A stretch of DNA of 35,170 nucleotides from Patescibacteria group bacterium. Lineage in GTDB: Bacteria > Patescibacteriota > Minisyncoccia > Phycocordibacterales > XYD1-FULL-46-19. Shown here piece after piece: positions 10,791-13,281 of the stretch. The DNA lies in the NCBI GenBank assembly GCA_030917625.1, contig JAUPUJ010000001.1, forward strand, positions 1 to 35,170. Reading direction: 5' to 3'. Numbering within the stretch: position 1 is the first letter of the stretch; each line of letters begins with the position of its first letter. The position numbers were made by a program, and so were the translations under genes. Under the pieces are notes generated by a model. That model saw only the letters and a program-made list of their open reading frames with translations. It made no database searches and was not told where the DNA came from.

Positions 10791-10834
10791 AAATAGTTAA
10801 AATTCAGTTCGCTAAATTAGCAAACGCTAATATG

Positions 10835-11100
10835 AGCCAATGATCGGAATCGAACCGATGACCTCTCCCTTCGTTTACACCTCTATTTCACTTAAAGCTT
10901 ATAAGAGGACTAGACTGTATCTTACGCATATTGGCAAAAACCAACTTAGCGCCCCTTGTCAGTCGTTCGGGCGAGAATGTCGCCACGGTCTTATCCTAAT
11001 TCTAGGACTTTAACCGTTATTCGGGATTCACTATTTCGTTTTCAAAATAATGGGCTATTCAATAACCATGGGAGTGCTCTACCGACTGAGCTACATTGGC
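10835..11100 (-). tRNA. tRNA-Thr(GGU) gene interrupted by a 193-nt intron between positions 36 and 37
   Basis: Minus strand exon 1 (11100-11065): GCCAATG-TA-GCTC-AGTCGGTA-GAGC-A-CTCCC-ATGGT. Exon 2 (10871-10835): AA-GGGAG-AGGTC-ATCGG-TTCGATT-CCGAT-CATTGGC-T. Joined, they give a canonical 73-nt cloverleaf with anticodon loop AUGGUAA. The D and anticodon arms resemble the usual bacterial tRNA-Thr(GGU) as I recall it. CCA is not encoded. Confidence 0.85.
10872..11064 (-). ncRNA. group I intron (minimal, IC3-like tRNA-type), no internal ORF
   Basis: Hand fold on the minus strand; i = intron position.
- P1: exon GGU + UAU / AUA-GCC, with a U.G wobble at the splice site.
- P2: CAUUAUUU/AAAUAGUG (i13-36).
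- P3: UCCC/GGGG.
- P4: ACGGU/ACCGU with A-rich J4/5 UAAAG and J5/4 UAAG.
- P5: UCCUA-GAAU-UAGGA.
- P6: GGCGA-CAUUC-UCGCC.
- P7: GACUG (10960-10964) / CAGUC (10913-10917).
- J8/7 + P7': AAGAUACAGUC, versus the group I S-element consensus AAGAUAUAGUC.
- P8: CGC..UUGGU-UUUU-GCCAA..GCG.
- P9: CCUCU/AGAGG.
- The last nucleotide is G (10872). Confidence 0.75.
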
Positions 11101-11120
11101 TACAAACTTAATTTGTATCA

Positions 11121-11738
11121 CTAATACAGTATACTAATATCTTCTACTGTCTTTTTCAAGGCATCATTAATCTCGTTTCTCAATTTAACATTATTGAAAT
11201 ACACAGTCACAACACCTTCTATATTTCTTACTCTATAAGTACCCCTTTTTTTAGATGGAGTAACTATGACTTTATAAAACTGATCCTTATTGACACAAAG
11301 GCACTTAGTCCAGTAAGCCAAACTTTTATTCTTATCCATAGAACTAAAGATTTGTAATCCAAATTTTAAATCTTTCTTATCAACCCCATAAACATGATTT
11401 AGAAATATTATAAATGTTTTTATTAACAAAGGATCTGAATTACCCAATCTAACAGAATATTTGTTTGCTTTTGTGCCTTCGCCCCAATATAAGCCGATAC
11501 CCATACCAAATAGAAAAAAGTCAGTTTTATCCACTAACTTTTTAACCTGAAAAGGATCTCCTTTTGGATTCAATTTTCTATACACTGCTTCTGATATAGA
11601 ACGTTTTGGTATTTTATATTTAATGAGCCAGTAATTTATTTTACTAACAGGCATATTTAATTGAGAAGCAATCTCTGATGCAGATTTTCCTTCTTTTAGA
11701 TAAATCTTATTTAATAACTGCTTACTAAGAATAACCAT
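11121..11738 (-). CDS. free-standing LAGLIDADG-family homing endonuclease/maturase-like protein with N-terminal HTH
   Basis: 205 aa. N-terminal helix-turn-helix (GKSASEIASQLNMPVSKINYWLIKY). A single LAGLIDADG-like motif (FLFGMGIGLYWGEGTK) is followed by a ~110-aa core of the size of one LAGLIDADG domain. The stop is 20 nt upstream of the tRNA-Thr 5' end on the same strand. Confidence 0.7.
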   Translation of the reverse strand: MVILSKQLLNKIYLKEGKSASEIASQLNMPVSKINYWLIKYKIPKRSISEAVYRKLNPKGDPFQVKKLVDKTDFFLFGMGIGLYWGEGTKANKYSVRLGNSDPLLIKTFIIFLNHVYGVDKKDLKFGLQIFSSMDKNKSLAYWTKCLCVNKDQFYKVIVTPSKKRGTYRVRNIEGVVTVYFNNVKLRNEINDALKKTVEDISILY

Positions 11739-11793
11739 ACACCTATATACTAATATAGATTAGGTCTTTAGTTAAATAAATTATCCACTTATA

Positions 11794-12063
11794 CTAAAGT
11801 TTATCATCTTTTTTCTGGCCCCATTGCCATCGTGGAGATTCGCCATATTTATAAGCAATTCTAATAAAACTAATAGTCAGAAGCATGGTTGGCAAAACAA
11901 AAAATAACCACCACTCTTTTTTGTCAGCGCCTTCGGCAACAGCACTCGCTAGAGAAGCTACCGCCACCACATAAATTAAAGTCACAATCCAACCAGAGAC
12001 AGTTGCAGGGTACCAACCCCAACCATAAATTTTTCTTTTAAACCAAATTTTTTTATTCTGCAT
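11794..12063 (-). CDS. small two-TM membrane protein
   Basis: 89 aa. YGWGWYPATVSGW is followed by two hydrophobic helices. Overlaps the upstream gene by 11 nt. Confidence 0.6.
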   Translation of the reverse strand: MQNKKIWFKRKIYGWGWYPATVSGWIVTLIYVVAVASLASAVAEGADKKEWWLFFVLPTMLLTISFIRIAYKYGESPRWQWGQKKDDKL

Positions 12064-12715
12064 AGTAAACAGTTTCTTCTAAAGAATCATTTTTTATTTC
12101 AAACGCAACAGTTTTTTCTATAGTCGGCTCAGCGGTCATTGGTTCATTTTCACCTCGAACCAAAAGAGTAGCTAAAATTTTTGGCTCGATATAATTATCA
12201 TCAACTAAAAGCGAATTCAAAAACACTCTATCACCTAAAAGAGTATCGCCTAATTGCTCCCACTTGCCATTATTTTCTTTATACAAAACTAGATAAAGAA
12301 AATTTCCTGTCCCGCCAGTACCAGCCACTATCGGAGCGACTAAATATTTAACTTCACCTAAATTTACTTCAACCGCATGAGAACTTAAGTAAACAATCAT
12401 CCCATCACCTCCCGCGCCTGAAAGTTTAAAATCTTTAACTCCTTTTTCTAAAGTGACAGTATCAAATAAACCTGGAATTCTAAACTCAGTTCCTATTAAT
12501 TGATCCCCTTCCTCAGCAATAGTAAAGGGATTAGTGCTGGTGGCCACAGAATCTATAATTGGCCCATCTGGTTCTTTATCCTTCATGAAAAAGGAAACCC
12601 CAGCCACAATAACTAGTAATAGCAGAATAAAGCCTGAAATGTAATATTTGTTCATATATTTGATTATAGCAAATTTTAAGTCTAAATTTCTACCACCAAT
12701 AGATTTTCCATACAA
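12053..12715 (-). CDS. hypothetical membrane-anchored exported protein
   Basis: 220-aa ORF. The likely real start is the Met at 12655 (MNKYYISGFILLLLVIVAGVSFF), because the first 20 codons overlap the terminator-like region. No recognised domain. Confidence 0.65.
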   Translation of the reverse strand: MYGKSIGGRNLDLKFAIIKYMNKYYISGFILLLLVIVAGVSFFMKDKEPDGPIIDSVATSTNPFTIAEEGDQLIGTEFRIPGLFDTVTLEKGVKDFKLSGAGGDGMIVYLSSHAVEVNLGEVKYLVAPIVAGTGGTGNFLYLVLYKENNGKWEQLGDTLLGDRVFLNSLLVDDNYIEPKILATLLVRGENEPMTAEPTIEKTVAFEIKNDSLEETVYYAE

Positions 12716-12908: not shown

Positions 12909-12910
12909 TG

Positions 12911-12984
12911 CGCGGTCGACCGGACTTGAACCGGCAACCTCCCGCGTGACAGGCGGGTGCTCTAACCAGTTGAGCTACGACCGC
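12911..12984 (-). tRNA. tRNA-Asp(GUC)
   Basis: Minus strand: GCGGTCG-TA-GCTC-AACTGGTTA-GAGC-A-CCCGC-CTGTCAC-GCGGG-AGGTT-GCCGG-TTCAAGT-CCGGT-CGACCGC-G. Canonical cloverleaf. CCA is not encoded. Confidence 0.92.
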
Positions 12985-13033
12985 AAACTTTTAGAGACAT
13001 CCTAGTCTAGCAAAACCAATCCAAAATGTCATG

Positions 13034-13106
13034 TGTCGAGGGTGGGGCTTGAACCCACGACCCCGGGCTTATGAGTCCCGTGCTCTACCAACTGAGCTAC
13101 CCCGAC
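13034..13106 (-). tRNA. tRNA with CAU anticodon, elongator type (Met, or Ile2 if lysidine-modified)
   Basis: Minus strand: GTCGGGG-TA-GCTC-AGTTGGTA-GAGC-A-CGGGA-CTCATAA-GCCCG-GGGTC-GTGGG-TTCAAGC-CCCAC-CCTCGAC-A. A paired G1-C72 and C11-G24 indicate a non-initiator. Confidence 0.85.
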
Positions 13107-13199
13107 AAAAACTTCACTACAAATTATGCATTTTCTGAGCTTTTTTGCAATGAAAAATATTGCACTAAACTTGAAATCATGGTAGTGTTTAGACACCTT

Positions 13200-13270
13200 A
13201 GCGGGATAGAGGAGAGGTACCTCGGGAGGCTCATAACCTCCAGACGCCGGTTCGATTCCGGCTCCCGCAA
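13200..13270 (+). tRNA. tRNA with CAU anticodon, probable initiator tRNA-fMet
   Basis: AGCGGGA-TA-GAGG-AGAGGTA-CCTC-G-GGAGG-CTCATAA-CCTCC-AGAC-GCCGG-TTCGATT-CCGGC-TCCCGCA-A. Position 1:72 is unpaired (A x A) and 11:24 is A:U, both bacterial initiator hallmarks. Only 2 of the 3 canonical G-C pairs at the base of the anticodon stem are present. Confidence 0.7.
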
Positions 13271-13281
13271 CAATGCATAAA

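What the first reader, a model, noticed from the sequence alone, without database searches (positions are those of the whole stretch)
11101..11738. Free-standing HTH + LAGLIDADG gene 20 nt upstream of the intron-containing tRNA rather than inside the intron
Seen in the sequence:
- A 205-aa ORF carries a helix-turn-helix and a single LAGLIDADG-like motif (GIGLYWGEGTK).
- It ends at 11121, and tRNA-Thr starts at 11100 on the same strand.
- The 20-nt spacer is itself a small hairpin (TACAAA-TTAAG-TTTGTA).
- The intron has no ORF.

Established knowledge: LAGLIDADG proteins are normally encoded in peripheral loops of group I introns. They act as homing endonucleases and/or splicing maturases. ORF-less introns mobilised by an adjacent free-standing endonuclease (collaborative homing) have been described in T4-like phages and cyanophages.

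Inference: the gene and intron could form a two-part mobile module. Alternatively the protein could be a trans-acting maturase co-transcribed with its substrate, which would make sense for such a stripped-down intron. I am not aware of either arrangement being described for a chromosomal bacterial tRNA gene.
Basis: partly seen in the sequence, partly recalled or inferred. Interest (0 to 1): 0.8.

Follow-up and report, generated by a model that had tools for sequence, protein, structure and literature searches.

The report
Nuclease-like gene family docked on tRNA genes
The gene belongs to a large, unnamed family of probable site-specific DNA-cutting selfish genes in ultra-small (CPR) bacteria and huge phages that always sit right next to a tRNA gene, so its partner here is the tRNA-Thr gene and not the intron inside it.

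Summary
A 205-aa ORF (11121-11738, minus strand) ends 20 nt before an intron-split tRNA-Thr(GGU).

- **Linkage is to the tRNA.** In 81 loci, 78 place the ORF directly 5' of tRNA-Thr(GGU): 50 with the intron, 28 without. In 30 of those 78 the ORF's stop codon is tRNA nucleotides 8-10.
- **The rule is family-wide.** Diverged sister clades sit before tRNA-Thr(UGU), Tyr, Met, Gln or Trp. Seven relatives on IMG/VR viral contigs lie inside tRNA clusters.
- **The intron does not need the ORF.** Of 108 intron-bearing loci, 59 lack an intact ORF, and 12 of those keep a 3' stub of it. One pair is 99.6% identical in tRNA plus intron yet differs by deletion of the ORF.
- **LAGLIDADG status is partial.** Profiles hit only I-DmoI's second LAGLIDADG motif (E 4.5e-5), and the residues aligned to its catalytic Glu and Lys are near-invariant. 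There is no Pfam hit, and Foldseek finds no LAGLIDADG fold even for a pLDDT-95 model.

Best reading: a dispensable, free-standing, homing-endonuclease-like gene that targets tRNA genes. The maturase idea is rejected. Collaborative homing with the intron is possible but not required. It is a new variant of a known kind.

The parts
11121..11738 (-). 205-aa ORF, a member of an unnamed HTH + LAGLIDADG-like family found in Patescibacteria (CPR) and in contigs that IMG/VR classes as large phages
   Evidence: 1164 homologues, all 'hypothetical'; 1957 clusters at 50% identity with E<1e-3.
11571..11723 (-). N-terminal helical HTH DNA-binding module (residues about 6-56)
   Evidence: AlphaFold helices H6-15, H20-26, H31-40, H48-56. 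Pfam HTH_23/HTH_28 hits across family members. PHROG 7545/8446 'HNH endonuclease' DNA-binding module, E 1e-5.
11127..11528 (-). C-terminal domain (residues 71-204): alpha / short beta hairpin / alpha / beta / alpha / beta / beta / alpha
   Evidence: Domain model pLDDT 94.9, pTM 0.88. No significant PDB fold match. Sequence profile hits only I-DmoI.
11469..11513 (-). LAGLIDADG-like motif LFGMGIGLYWGEGTK, with Glu87 and Lys90
   Evidence: Aligns to I-DmoI GLYVAEGDK (E117, K120). Acidic residue in 57/57 and K/R in 54/57 diverse members. Catalytic roles of the I-DmoI residues are taken from PMC3384342.
11101..11120 (-). 20-nt spacer between the stop codon and the tRNA; contains a weak A/U hairpin
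   Evidence: Hairpin is not above shuffles. In relatives the gap ranges from -84 to +218 nt, with a mode of -10 (overlap).
11065..11100 (-). tRNA-Thr(GGU) 5' exon (nt 1-36)
10872..11064 (-). 193-nt ORF-less intervening sequence with a group-I-like core (P2, P4-P9; U before the 5' splice site, G at the 3' end); not recognised by Rfam
   Evidence: No RF00028 hit. RNAalifold on 102 non-redundant homologues recovers the helices, with many compensatory pair types.
10835..10871 (-). tRNA-Thr(GGU) 3' exon (no encoded CCA)
11744..11757 (-). A/T-rich -10-like hexamers (TATATT, TATATA) 6-13 nt before the ATG; possibly a promoter for a leaderless or short-leader ORF-tRNA transcript (inferred)
   Evidence: In many homologous loci a TGGTATAAT-like box lies 6-10 nt before the start codon. 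The consensus scan of the window is not above chance.
11131..11159 (-). Promoter-like TTGAAA-17-TAGTAT inside the ORF's 3' end, about 30 nt before the tRNA (weak, inferred)
   Evidence: Would explain why deletion remnants keep the ORF's last ~80 nt.
10807..10825 (-). Terminator-like hairpin plus T-run just after the tRNA

Best explanation
The ORF is one member of a large, unannotated family of free-standing, homing-endonuclease-like genes that use tRNA genes as their genomic niche.

**The protein.** It joins an N-terminal HTH DNA-binding module to a single LAGLIDADG-like catalytic domain that resembles the I-DmoI C-terminal domain. Glu87 and Lys90 align with I-DmoI's catalytic residues. A single-domain enzyme of this kind would be expected to act as a homodimer (inferred).

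**The family.** Each lineage is tied to one cognate tRNA gene. In CPR bacteria the gene sits in the 5' leader of that tRNA. It appears to carry its own promoter immediately before the start codon, and its stop codon is often tRNA nucleotides U8-A9-G10.

**Shown here:** the gene is dispensable, is present or absent between near-identical relatives, and decays by deletion.

**Inferred mechanism:** the protein cuts ORF-less alleles at or near the cognate tRNA gene, and recombinational repair copies the ORF in together with the adjacent tRNA sequence.

**The intron** in the window's tRNA-Thr(GGU) is an independent group-I-like element. At most it hitchhikes by co-conversion.
For: **Family and linkage**
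- 1164 homologues, all labelled hypothetical, in Patescibacteria.
- 78 of 81 loci place the ORF directly 5' of tRNA-Thr(GGU), with or without the intron. The gap is -10 nt in 30 of 78.
- 138 of 147 family ORFs are followed by a same-strand tRNA.
- Clades track the cognate tRNA: Thr-GGU, Thr-UGU, Tyr and Met, plus single Gln and Trp cases.
- Seven relatives with 26-59% identity over the matched segment lie on 100-500 kb IMG/VR contigs, all within 1.5 kb of tRNA genes. Full ORFs were read for four of them; these share the HTH + GLYWGEG architecture, and the 3' ends of three abut or overlap a convergent tRNA while the fourth lies 62 nt after a same-strand tRNA. This points to a DNA-level association rather than one based on a shared transcript.

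**Nuclease signature**
- Profiles hit only I-DmoI among non-HTH PDB entries: E 1.3e-3 with A2 and 4.5e-5 with A3. hhalign gives E 8.6e-5.
- One phage relative scores just below threshold on Pfam LAGLIDADG_3.
- The acidic residue is conserved in 57/57 and the basic residue in 54/57 diverse members. The domesticated relative WhiA has lost both (PMC3384342).
- The HTH resembles the DNA-binding modules of phage families annotated 'HNH endonuclease'.

**Selfish or accessory behaviour**
- Syntenic tRNA clusters occur with and without the ~0.65-0.85 kb ORF.
- L172 and L198 are 99.6% identical in tRNA plus intron, but L198 keeps only the last ~80 nt of the ORF.
- 12 of 48 ORF-less loci keep a 3' stub ending at tRNA nt 10.
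- Identical duplicated tRNA 5' fragments lie upstream of the ORF in L066 (28 nt) and L057 (25 nt).
- The ORF has the lowest GC of 35 window ORFs (29.1% against 37.5%, z = -2.0).
Against: - No enzymatic evidence exists, and the target site could not be derived.
- The window protein has no Pfam, NCBIfam or PADLOC hit outside weak HTH matches.
- Foldseek finds no LAGLIDADG structure for either model; the best TM-score is below 0.4.
- The ORF tree largely follows local synteny. Long vertical inheritance with strong purifying selection (46 invariant columns) would also fit a host-beneficial gene.
- No clear horizontal-transfer event was demonstrated.
- ORF-bearing and ORF-less alleles show no diagnostic difference within the tRNA itself, so how the host allele escapes cleavage is unexplained.
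Confidence: 0.5

Rival explanations
1. Domesticated DNA-binding factor. Like WhiA (a LAGLIDADG scaffold plus an HTH), the protein would be a sequence-specific regulator or protector of its cognate tRNA gene, for example autoregulating the ORF-tRNA promoter. It would be retained for host benefit and would not be mobile.
For: - Strong conservation over a whole phylum, with a tree that tracks synteny.
- Constant position in the tRNA leader with a shared promoter.
- The HTH + LAGLIDADG combination has a precedent in WhiA (PMC3384342).
Against: - The catalytic-type Glu and Lys are almost invariant, whereas WhiA has lost them.
- The gene is absent from most syntenic relatives and is repeatedly deleted, without loss of the tRNA.
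- The phage relatives that abut a tRNA lie convergent to it, so a promoter-level role does not generalise.
Confidence: 0.15
2. Collaborative homing. The endonuclease cuts intron-less tRNA-Thr(GGU) at the intron insertion site. The intron protects the host allele, and ORF and intron move together.
For: - 50 of 78 ORF-linked tRNA-Thr(GGU) genes carry the intron.
- 49 of 108 intron-bearing loci carry an intact ORF and a further 12 carry remnants. This looks well above the ORF's apparent overall rarity: 250 hits among 185,579 GTDB species genomes.
- The intron starts only 36 nt beyond the tRNA 5' end, which lies within 40 nt of the ORF's end in most loci, so any conversion tract would carry it along.
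- The anticodon arm is palindrome-like, which would suit a homodimeric enzyme (inference).
- The mechanism has precedents in phages (PMC3984707).
Against: - 28 of 78 ORF-linked genes are intron-less.
- L047 has an intact ORF next to an intron-less allele identical in its anticodon arm to the exons of intron-bearing alleles.
- Sister clades flank intron-less tRNAs.
- The intron occurs without any trace of the ORF in many loci.
- Intron state changes within ORF clades.
- The base rate of the intron among ORF-less tRNA-Thr(GGU) genes could not be measured.
Confidence: 0.12
3. Other RNA-level role. The protein acts on its own transcript, for example in pre-tRNA leader handling, or it has an unrelated enzymatic function in a novel fold.
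For: - Same-strand, overlapping arrangement with the tRNA in CPR genomes.
- The C-terminal domain has no significant structural neighbour in the PDB.
Against: - The phage relatives that abut a tRNA are convergent with it.
- The protein is built from DNA-binding modules.
- The gene is dispensable in near-isogenic relatives that keep the tRNA.
Confidence: 0.08
4. Trans-acting maturase for the stripped-down tRNA intron.
For: - LAGLIDADG proteins can act as maturases (PMC3384342).
- The ORF is adjacent to the intron in the window and is probably co-transcribed with it.
Against: - The ORF persists intact beside intron-less tRNAs in 28 of 78 loci, and beside other intron-less tRNA species.
- The intron persists, essentially unchanged, after deletion of the ORF.
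- 59 of 108 intron-bearing loci lack an intact ORF.
- Catalytic residues are conserved.
Confidence: 0.04

Closest known systems
I-DmoI and other LAGLIDADG homing endonucleases
   Same: The motif helix ends in an acidic residue followed by G-x-K, then a short beta hairpin and an amphipathic helix. I-DmoI's second motif region is the only non-HTH PDB match, at E 4.5e-5. The residues aligned to its catalytic Glu and Lys are conserved.
   Different: - No Pfam LAGLIDADG hit for the window protein.
- Foldseek does not retrieve any LAGLIDADG structure.
- An extra beta-alpha unit lies between alpha2 and the second hairpin.
- An N-terminal HTH is added.
- The gene is free-standing, not encoded in an intron or intein.
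Phage T4 SegB (free-standing homing endonuclease in the tRNA gene cluster; PMC2330249)
   Same: A free-standing endonuclease gene embedded among tRNA genes that promotes inheritance of the neighbouring tRNA region. The IMG/VR relatives of this family also sit in tRNA clusters.
   Different: - SegB belongs to the GIY-YIG family.
- It is phage-only.
- It is not fused to a tRNA's 5' end.
- It is not split into lineages each dedicated to a single tRNA.
Collaborative or trans homing (F-CphI with the psbA intron; MobE with I-TevIII; PMC3984707, PMC2790892)
   Same: [quoted passage not shown]
   Different: Here the ORF and the intron each occur frequently without the other, and the ORF family is tied to tRNA genes in general.
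I-Ssp6803I, the endonuclease encoded in the tRNA-fMet intron (Bonocora & Shub 2001, cited in PMC3984707)
   Same: A bacterial endonuclease whose target is a tRNA gene (the anticodon region).
   Different: That enzyme is encoded inside the intron and belongs to a different fold family. The gene here lies outside the tRNA and is independent of the intron.
WhiA/DUF199
   Same: A bacterial protein that combines a LAGLIDADG scaffold with an HTH.
   Different: WhiA has two degenerate LAGLIDADG domains, a C-terminal HTH and no catalytic residues, and it is a core gene (PMC3384342). The family here has one domain, an N-terminal HTH and retained Glu/Lys, and it is dispensable.
LAGLIDADG endonucleases in CPR rRNA insertions (Tsurumaki 2024, cited in PMC11809585; also noted in PMC8172020)
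   Same: The same host phylum, and the same general kind of selfish nuclease exploiting a conserved structural-RNA gene.
   Different: Those are encoded inside rRNA intervening sequences and are recognised by standard LAGLIDADG models. This family is free-standing, sits beside tRNA genes and is unannotated.

Membership tests
LAGLIDADG endonuclease superfamily | LAGLIDADG-type helix ending in a conserved acidic residue (the metal ligand), with a nearby conserved basic residue | tested here: met
   GLYWGEG-K is present. Acidic residue in 57/57 and K/R in 54/57 diverse members. These align to I-DmoI E117 and K120.
LAGLIDADG endonuclease superfamily | Significant match to curated family models (Pfam LAGLIDADG_1/2/3) | tested here: not met
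   No hit for the window protein even at E<=10. Among 57 members only HTH families recur. One phage relative scores 20.1 bits on PF14528, below the 22.5-bit cut-off.
LAGLIDADG endonuclease superfamily | Sequence-profile match to a solved LAGLIDADG enzyme | tested here: met
   Profile A2 hits I-DmoI at E 1.3e-3 and profile A3 at E 4.5e-5. All I-DmoI entries are hit and nothing else outside HTH proteins. hhalign gives E 8.6e-5 at 60% probability over 41 columns.
LAGLIDADG endonuclease superfamily | [quoted passage not shown] | tested here: inconclusive
Free-standing homing endonuclease gene | Presence/absence polymorphism at a fixed site among close relatives, plus degenerate copies | tested here: met
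   Syntenic loci occur with and without the ORF. The L172/L198 pair is 99.6% identical in tRNA plus intron. 12 of 48 ORF-less loci carry 3' stubs.
Free-standing homing endonuclease gene | Site-specific cleavage of ORF-less alleles and gene conversion | not testable with these tools
   Requires biochemistry or genetics.
Free-standing homing endonuclease gene | Horizontal spread (phylogeny discordant with the host) | tested here: inconclusive
   The ORF tree mostly follows synteny. Relatives are present in both CPR bacteria and IMG/VR viral contigs. Duplicated tRNA 5' fragments hint at recent insertion events.
Collaborative-homing pair (endonuclease + ORF-less intron) | The endonuclease gene and the intron co-occur, and the target is the intron insertion site | tested here: not met
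   The ORF occurs without the intron in 28 of 78 loci, and the intron without an intact ORF in 59 of 108. The L047 counter-example applies. The cut site itself is not testable here.
Intron maturase | The protein is required by, and distributed with, its intron | tested here: not met
   The splicing assay itself is not testable here.
Group I intron (the tRNA insert) | Match to Rfam RF00028 | tested here: not met
   No hit at E<=10 in the window or at E<=1 in 10 loci. A tRNA-Asp intron in L008 does hit, at 42.5 bits.
Group I intron (the tRNA insert) | Conserved P3-P9 core supported by covariation, U at -1 and a terminal G | tested here: met
   RNAalifold on 102 sequences gives P2, P4, P5, P6, P7 (GACUG/CAGUC), P8 and P9. 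P2, P5, P6, P8 and P9 show 3-6 pair types per position. P1 pairing with the guide sequence was not resolved.
WhiA-like domesticated LAGLIDADG regulator | Loss of catalytic acidic and basic residues; core-gene distribution | tested here: not met
   The residues are retained and the gene is dispensable.

The most novel reading that the evidence does not exclude
A previously unrecognised class of tRNA-gene-homing elements shared by CPR bacteria and huge phages.
- A LAGLIDADG-derived nuclease family has split into lineages, each dedicated to one tRNA gene.
- In CPR bacteria it lives inside the pre-tRNA 5' leader with its stop codon inside the tRNA, so RNase P processing would sever the mRNA from its stop codon.
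- It holds the tRNA's promoter hostage.
- Through co-conversion it helps to spread ORF-less group-I-like introns through single-copy tRNA genes of naturally competent bacteria.
Probability: 0.35. Interest if true: 0.75.

Novelty: new variant of a known kind. Interest (0 to 1): 0.6.

Why it matters
- **Annotation.** It would give a function and a name to a family of more than a thousand 'hypothetical' proteins in Patescibacteria. It would also define a simple genomic rule: the gene is always docked on a tRNA gene.
- **Selfish nucleases beyond rRNA.** It would show that selfish nucleases in CPR genomes exploit tRNA genes as well as rRNA genes.
- **tRNA introns.** It offers a testable route for how ORF-less tRNA introns move.
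- **Practical uses.** The arrangement, together with the Rfam-invisible intron, explains missed tRNA-Thr calls in CPR genome annotation. A set of natural nucleases, each apparently specific for a different conserved tRNA gene, would be a useful specificity panel.
- **Fold evolution.** The C-terminal domain is predicted with high confidence yet has no structural neighbour in the PDB, which is of interest for how the LAGLIDADG fold evolves.

Tried and rejected
- **Family libraries on the window protein.** Pfam, NCBIfam, PADLOC and PDB phmmer returned only weak HTH or spurious hits, such as papillomavirus L1 and LolA.
- **Foldseek.** Searches of the full-length and domain-only models against the PDB, and of the full-length model against BFVD, gave no significant match.
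- **Rfam.** Neither the window's intron nor the tRNA-Thr introns of 10 other loci hit the group I model.
- **Spacer hairpin.** It is not better than shuffled sequence.
- **Promoter scan.** Not above chance.
- **Remnant of a 5' tRNA half upstream of every ORF.** Most apparent similarity is extended -10 promoter sequence or a neighbouring true tRNA. Only L066, L057 and L009 are real duplications.
- **Immunity differences.** No diagnostic tRNA differences separate ORF-bearing from ORF-less alleles.
- **Other copies.** There is no second family member in the window.
- **Phage searches.** tblastn against GenBank phages found nothing. The A2 alignment was too diverse for the viral-contig scan, so A1 was used instead.
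- **Literature.** Searches found no description of this arrangement.
- **Maturase hypothesis.** Rejected on distribution.
Full report
**1. What is in the window**

On the minus strand, an ATG-to-TAG ORF of 205 aa occupies 11121-11738. Twenty nucleotides further on, at 11100, a tRNA begins. Default ARAGORN and Rfam miss it. ARAGORN with introns allowed finds c[10834,11100] with a 193-nt insert in the anticodon loop. The program labels it Pro(ggg), but the sequence reads CTCCC-AT-GGT | insert | AA-GGGAG. This is tRNA-Thr(GGU) interrupted between positions 36 and 37.

- The insert follows a U and ends in G.
- The insert is too short to encode a protein.
- The surrounding window is 38% GC, with compact genes almost all on one strand.
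- All homologues of the ORF come from Patescibacteria/CPR metagenome-assembled genomes.

**2. The ORF belongs to a large, unnamed family**

- The word-indexed search found 1164 proteins, about 200 aa long and typically 50-57% identical to the query. All are labelled 'hypothetical'.
- The exhaustive search found 1957 clusters at 50% identity with E<1e-3.
- An alignment of 31 close members has 46 invariant columns, including GLYWGEG-K and RLGN-DP.

**3. The gene's partner is the tRNA, not the intron**

I fetched 80 loci from GTDB species genomes and re-annotated their tRNAs with introns allowed.

- 78 of 81 loci (80 plus the window) have tRNA-Thr(GGU) immediately after the ORF on the same strand.
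- 50 of these carry a 165-215-nt insert at 36/37 and 28 have no insert.
- The commonest spacing is -10 nt (30 of 78). In those loci the ORF's TAG stop codon is tRNA nucleotides U8-A9-G10, and the C-terminal 'LP[KRT]' residues are encoded by the acceptor stem. Overlaps of -21 and more also occur.

Divergent family members in the same or other loci sit in the same way before other tRNAs:

| Downstream tRNA | Family ORFs |
|---|---|
| Thr(GGU) with intron | 91 |
| Thr(GGU) without intron | 29 |
| Met(CAU) | 6 |
| Thr(UGU) | 5 |
| Tyr(GUA) | 4 |
| Thr(CGU) | 1 |
| Gln | 1 |
| Trp | 1 |
| none called | 9 |

Overall, 138 of 147 family ORFs have a same-strand tRNA within -130..+300 nt of the stop. 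Most of the other nine lie at contig ends. A neighbour-joining tree groups the proteins by their cognate tRNA.

Seven relatives (26-59% identical over the matched segment) lie on IMG/VR contigs of 100-500 kb. All are inside tRNA clusters. I read full ORFs for four of them, and these have the same HTH + GLYWGEG architecture. Three have a 3' end that abuts or overlaps a convergent tRNA. The fourth lies 62 nt after a same-strand tRNA. Adjacency to tRNA genes in both orientations argues that the association is with tRNA DNA rather than with a shared transcript.

**4. The intron is independent**

A scan of metagenome contigs for the exon-intron junction of the commonest intron type returned 120 loci.

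- 108 of them have enough upstream sequence to judge. Of these, 49 have the ORF and 59 do not.
- The ORF-less loci are syntenic with ORF-bearing ones. Examples are Asp, Thr(GGU)-intron, Thr(CGU), and Thr(UGU), Tyr, Thr(GGU)-intron, Trp. The ORF-less versions have only a 25-60-nt spacer and a promoter-like box before the tRNA.
- Twelve of 48 ORF-less loci, representing about eight lineages, still carry the last 20-30 codons of the ORF, ending at tRNA nt 10. L118 also keeps the N-terminus.
- L172 (ORF+) and L198 (ORF-) are 99.6% identical over tRNA plus intron. L198 retains only the final ~80 nt of the ORF.

So the ORF is dispensable, is lost by deletion, and the intron stays intact without it.

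Conversely, L047 combines an intact ORF with an intron-less tRNA whose 5' 36 nt and anticodon stem are identical to the exons of intron-bearing alleles such as L049. On the ORF tree the intron state is partly structured by clade but changes several times.

The insert itself is a real structured RNA. It does not hit Rfam RF00028, whereas a tRNA-Asp intron in L008 does. RNAalifold on 102 non-redundant copies recovers the tRNA arms plus P2, P4, P5, P6, P7 (GACUG/CAGUC), P8 and P9. P4 and P7 are invariant, and the other helices show abundant compensatory changes.

**5. What the protein is**

*Structure prediction.* AlphaFold gives an N-terminal four-helix HTH module and a C-terminal alpha/beta domain (pLDDT 83.3 for the full length; 94.9 and pTM 0.88 for the domain alone).

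*HTH module.* It matches generic HTH families. It also matches the DNA-binding modules of two PHROG families annotated 'HNH endonuclease'.

*C-terminal domain, evidence for a LAGLIDADG relationship:*
- A profile of 42 diverse members hits only I-DmoI in the PDB (E 1.3e-3).
- A broader profile of 57 members, including the phage relatives and the paralogues, improves this to 4.5e-5.
- hhalign gives E 8.6e-5 at 60% probability.
- The aligned stretch is I-DmoI's second LAGLIDADG motif plus the following strand and helix. Glu87 and Lys90 fall on E117 and K120.
- According to PMC3384342, those I-DmoI residues are catalytic and are lost in the domesticated relative WhiA. In this family the acidic residue is present in 57/57 and a basic residue in 54/57 diverse members.
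- One phage relative scores just below threshold on Pfam LAGLIDADG_3.

*Evidence against:*
- The window protein has no Pfam LAGLIDADG hit.
- Foldseek retrieves no LAGLIDADG structure for either model; the best TM-score is below 0.4.
- BFVD gives only weak hits, several of them to endonuclease- or LAGLIDADG-annotated phage proteins.

The secondary-structure order is alpha, short hairpin, alpha, beta, alpha, beta, beta, alpha. This fits a LAGLIDADG core with an inserted beta-alpha unit. I therefore call it LAGLIDADG-like: homology of the motif region is supported, and fold membership is unresolved.

**6. Mechanism**

*Shown:*
- A sequence-conserved protein with a nuclease-type signature.
- A strict physical association of each clade with one tRNA gene.
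- Dispensability, deletion remnants and near-isogenic presence/absence.
- Occasional identical duplications of the tRNA's first 25-28 nt upstream of the ORF (L066, L057).
- The lowest GC content among the window's ORFs.

*Inferred:*
- The protein, probably a homodimer, cleaves ORF-less alleles at or near the cognate tRNA gene, and repair copies the ORF in.
- A -10-like box 6-10 nt before the start codon in many loci suggests a leaderless ORF-tRNA transcript. RNase P would then separate the mRNA from the tRNA, and in the -10 configuration from its own stop codon.
- The retained 3' stub may survive because it carries a tRNA promoter.
- Natural competence of CPR bacteria (established knowledge, not tested here) would supply the opportunity for allele encounters.

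*Unexplained:* the target site and the basis of self-immunity. The tRNA sequences of ORF+ and ORF- alleles do not differ diagnostically.

**7. Rivals**

- **WhiA-like domesticated regulator.** Fits the long vertical history but not the retained catalytic residues, the dispensability, or the convergent orientation in phages.
- **Collaborative homing.** Not required and is contradicted by L047 and the intron-less clades. The intron is nevertheless over-represented next to the ORF and lies within any plausible conversion tract, so hitchhiking remains possible. I could not measure the base rate of the intron among ORF-less tRNA-Thr(GGU) genes, because the genome and metagenome scans were exhausted.
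- **Maturase.** Rejected on distribution.

**8. Comparison with what is known, and novelty**

Free-standing homing endonuclease genes in tRNA clusters are known from phage T4 (SegB, GIY-YIG; PMC2330249). An endonuclease targeting a tRNA anticodon region is known from a cyanobacterial tRNA-fMet intron (cited in PMC3984707). LAGLIDADG genes in CPR rRNA insertions are known (PMC8172020, PMC11809585).

Four literature searches aimed at this arrangement found no description of a free-standing HTH + LAGLIDADG-like family docked on chromosomal tRNA genes, nor of its tRNA-specific clades. CPR tRNA group I introns are mentioned only in passing.

I rate it a new variant of a known kind, of moderate to high interest. 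The stronger and more general finding is the ORF-tRNA rule.

Noticed in passing
window 10872-11064 (-); homologous inserts in L001-L080 and L089-L208: The tRNA-Thr(GGU) insert family is invisible to Rfam RF00028 even at E<=10, although it has a covarying P2/P4-P9 group-I-like core. Default ARAGORN and Rfam therefore miss this tRNA-Thr gene, and ARAGORN -i mislabels it as Pro, Arg or His. The P1/guide-sequence pairing was not resolved: a conserved GCCCAU lies near the intron's 5' end but gives a U-C pair, not a U-G pair, at the splice site.
   Followed up: partly
L066 2866-2930; L057 2929-2953; L009 1459-1470: Fragments identical to the first 28, 25 and 12 nt of the downstream tRNA-Thr(GGU) lie 50-130 nt upstream of the ORF start codon. 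In L066 the fragment is fused to the T-arm and 3' acceptor of a different tRNA, with a shortened anticodon arm. This may be a recombination or repair scar.
   Followed up: partly
L025 2685-3682: A rearranged order: the intron-bearing tRNA-Thr(GGU) lies upstream of the ORF, and tRNA-Thr(CGU) follows the ORF by 14 nt, although the protein belongs to the Thr(GGU) clade.
   Followed up: no
L008 688-975 (-), L038 3-283, L080 2632-2926, L202 (tRNA-Asp about 1.3 kb upstream of tRNA-Thr): Other CPR tRNAs (Asp-GUC, Tyr-GUA) also carry ~205-215-nt inserts. The L008 tRNA-Asp insert scores 42.5 bits on Rfam Intron_gpI (below the cut-off of 50). In L080 the ORF is flanked by two intron-bearing tRNAs.
   Followed up: no
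proteins P0184, P0195, P0198, P0200, P0212, P0213 and others: Proteins of 300-820 aa contain 5-10 tandem copies of a unit resembling the ORF's N-terminal HTH module (residues ~5-55). PDB entry 2lvs, with two such repeats, is the nearest natural solved relative; a designed repeat protein, 8vd6, scores higher.
   Followed up: no
window 12910-13271: A tRNA cluster lies upstream of the ORF: tRNA-Asp(GUC) and tRNA-Met(CAU) on the minus strand, and a second, divergent tRNA-Met(CAU) on the plus strand (13200-13271). The same Met-Met-Asp context recurs in several ORF-bearing and ORF-less relatives.
   Followed up: partly
window 11794-12063 (-) and 12053-12715 (-): Two small ORFs that look like membrane or secreted proteins (89 and 220 aa) lie between the tRNA-Asp and the HTH-LAGLIDADG-like ORF and overlap each other by 11 nt. 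They were not characterised.
   Followed up: no
window 11131-11159 (-): A TTGAAA-17-TAGTAT promoter-like site lies inside the ORF's last 40 nt. Together with the conserved retention of the ORF's 3' stub after deletion (L198, L118, L130 and others), this suggests the tRNA's promoter is embedded in the ORF's end.
   Followed up: partly
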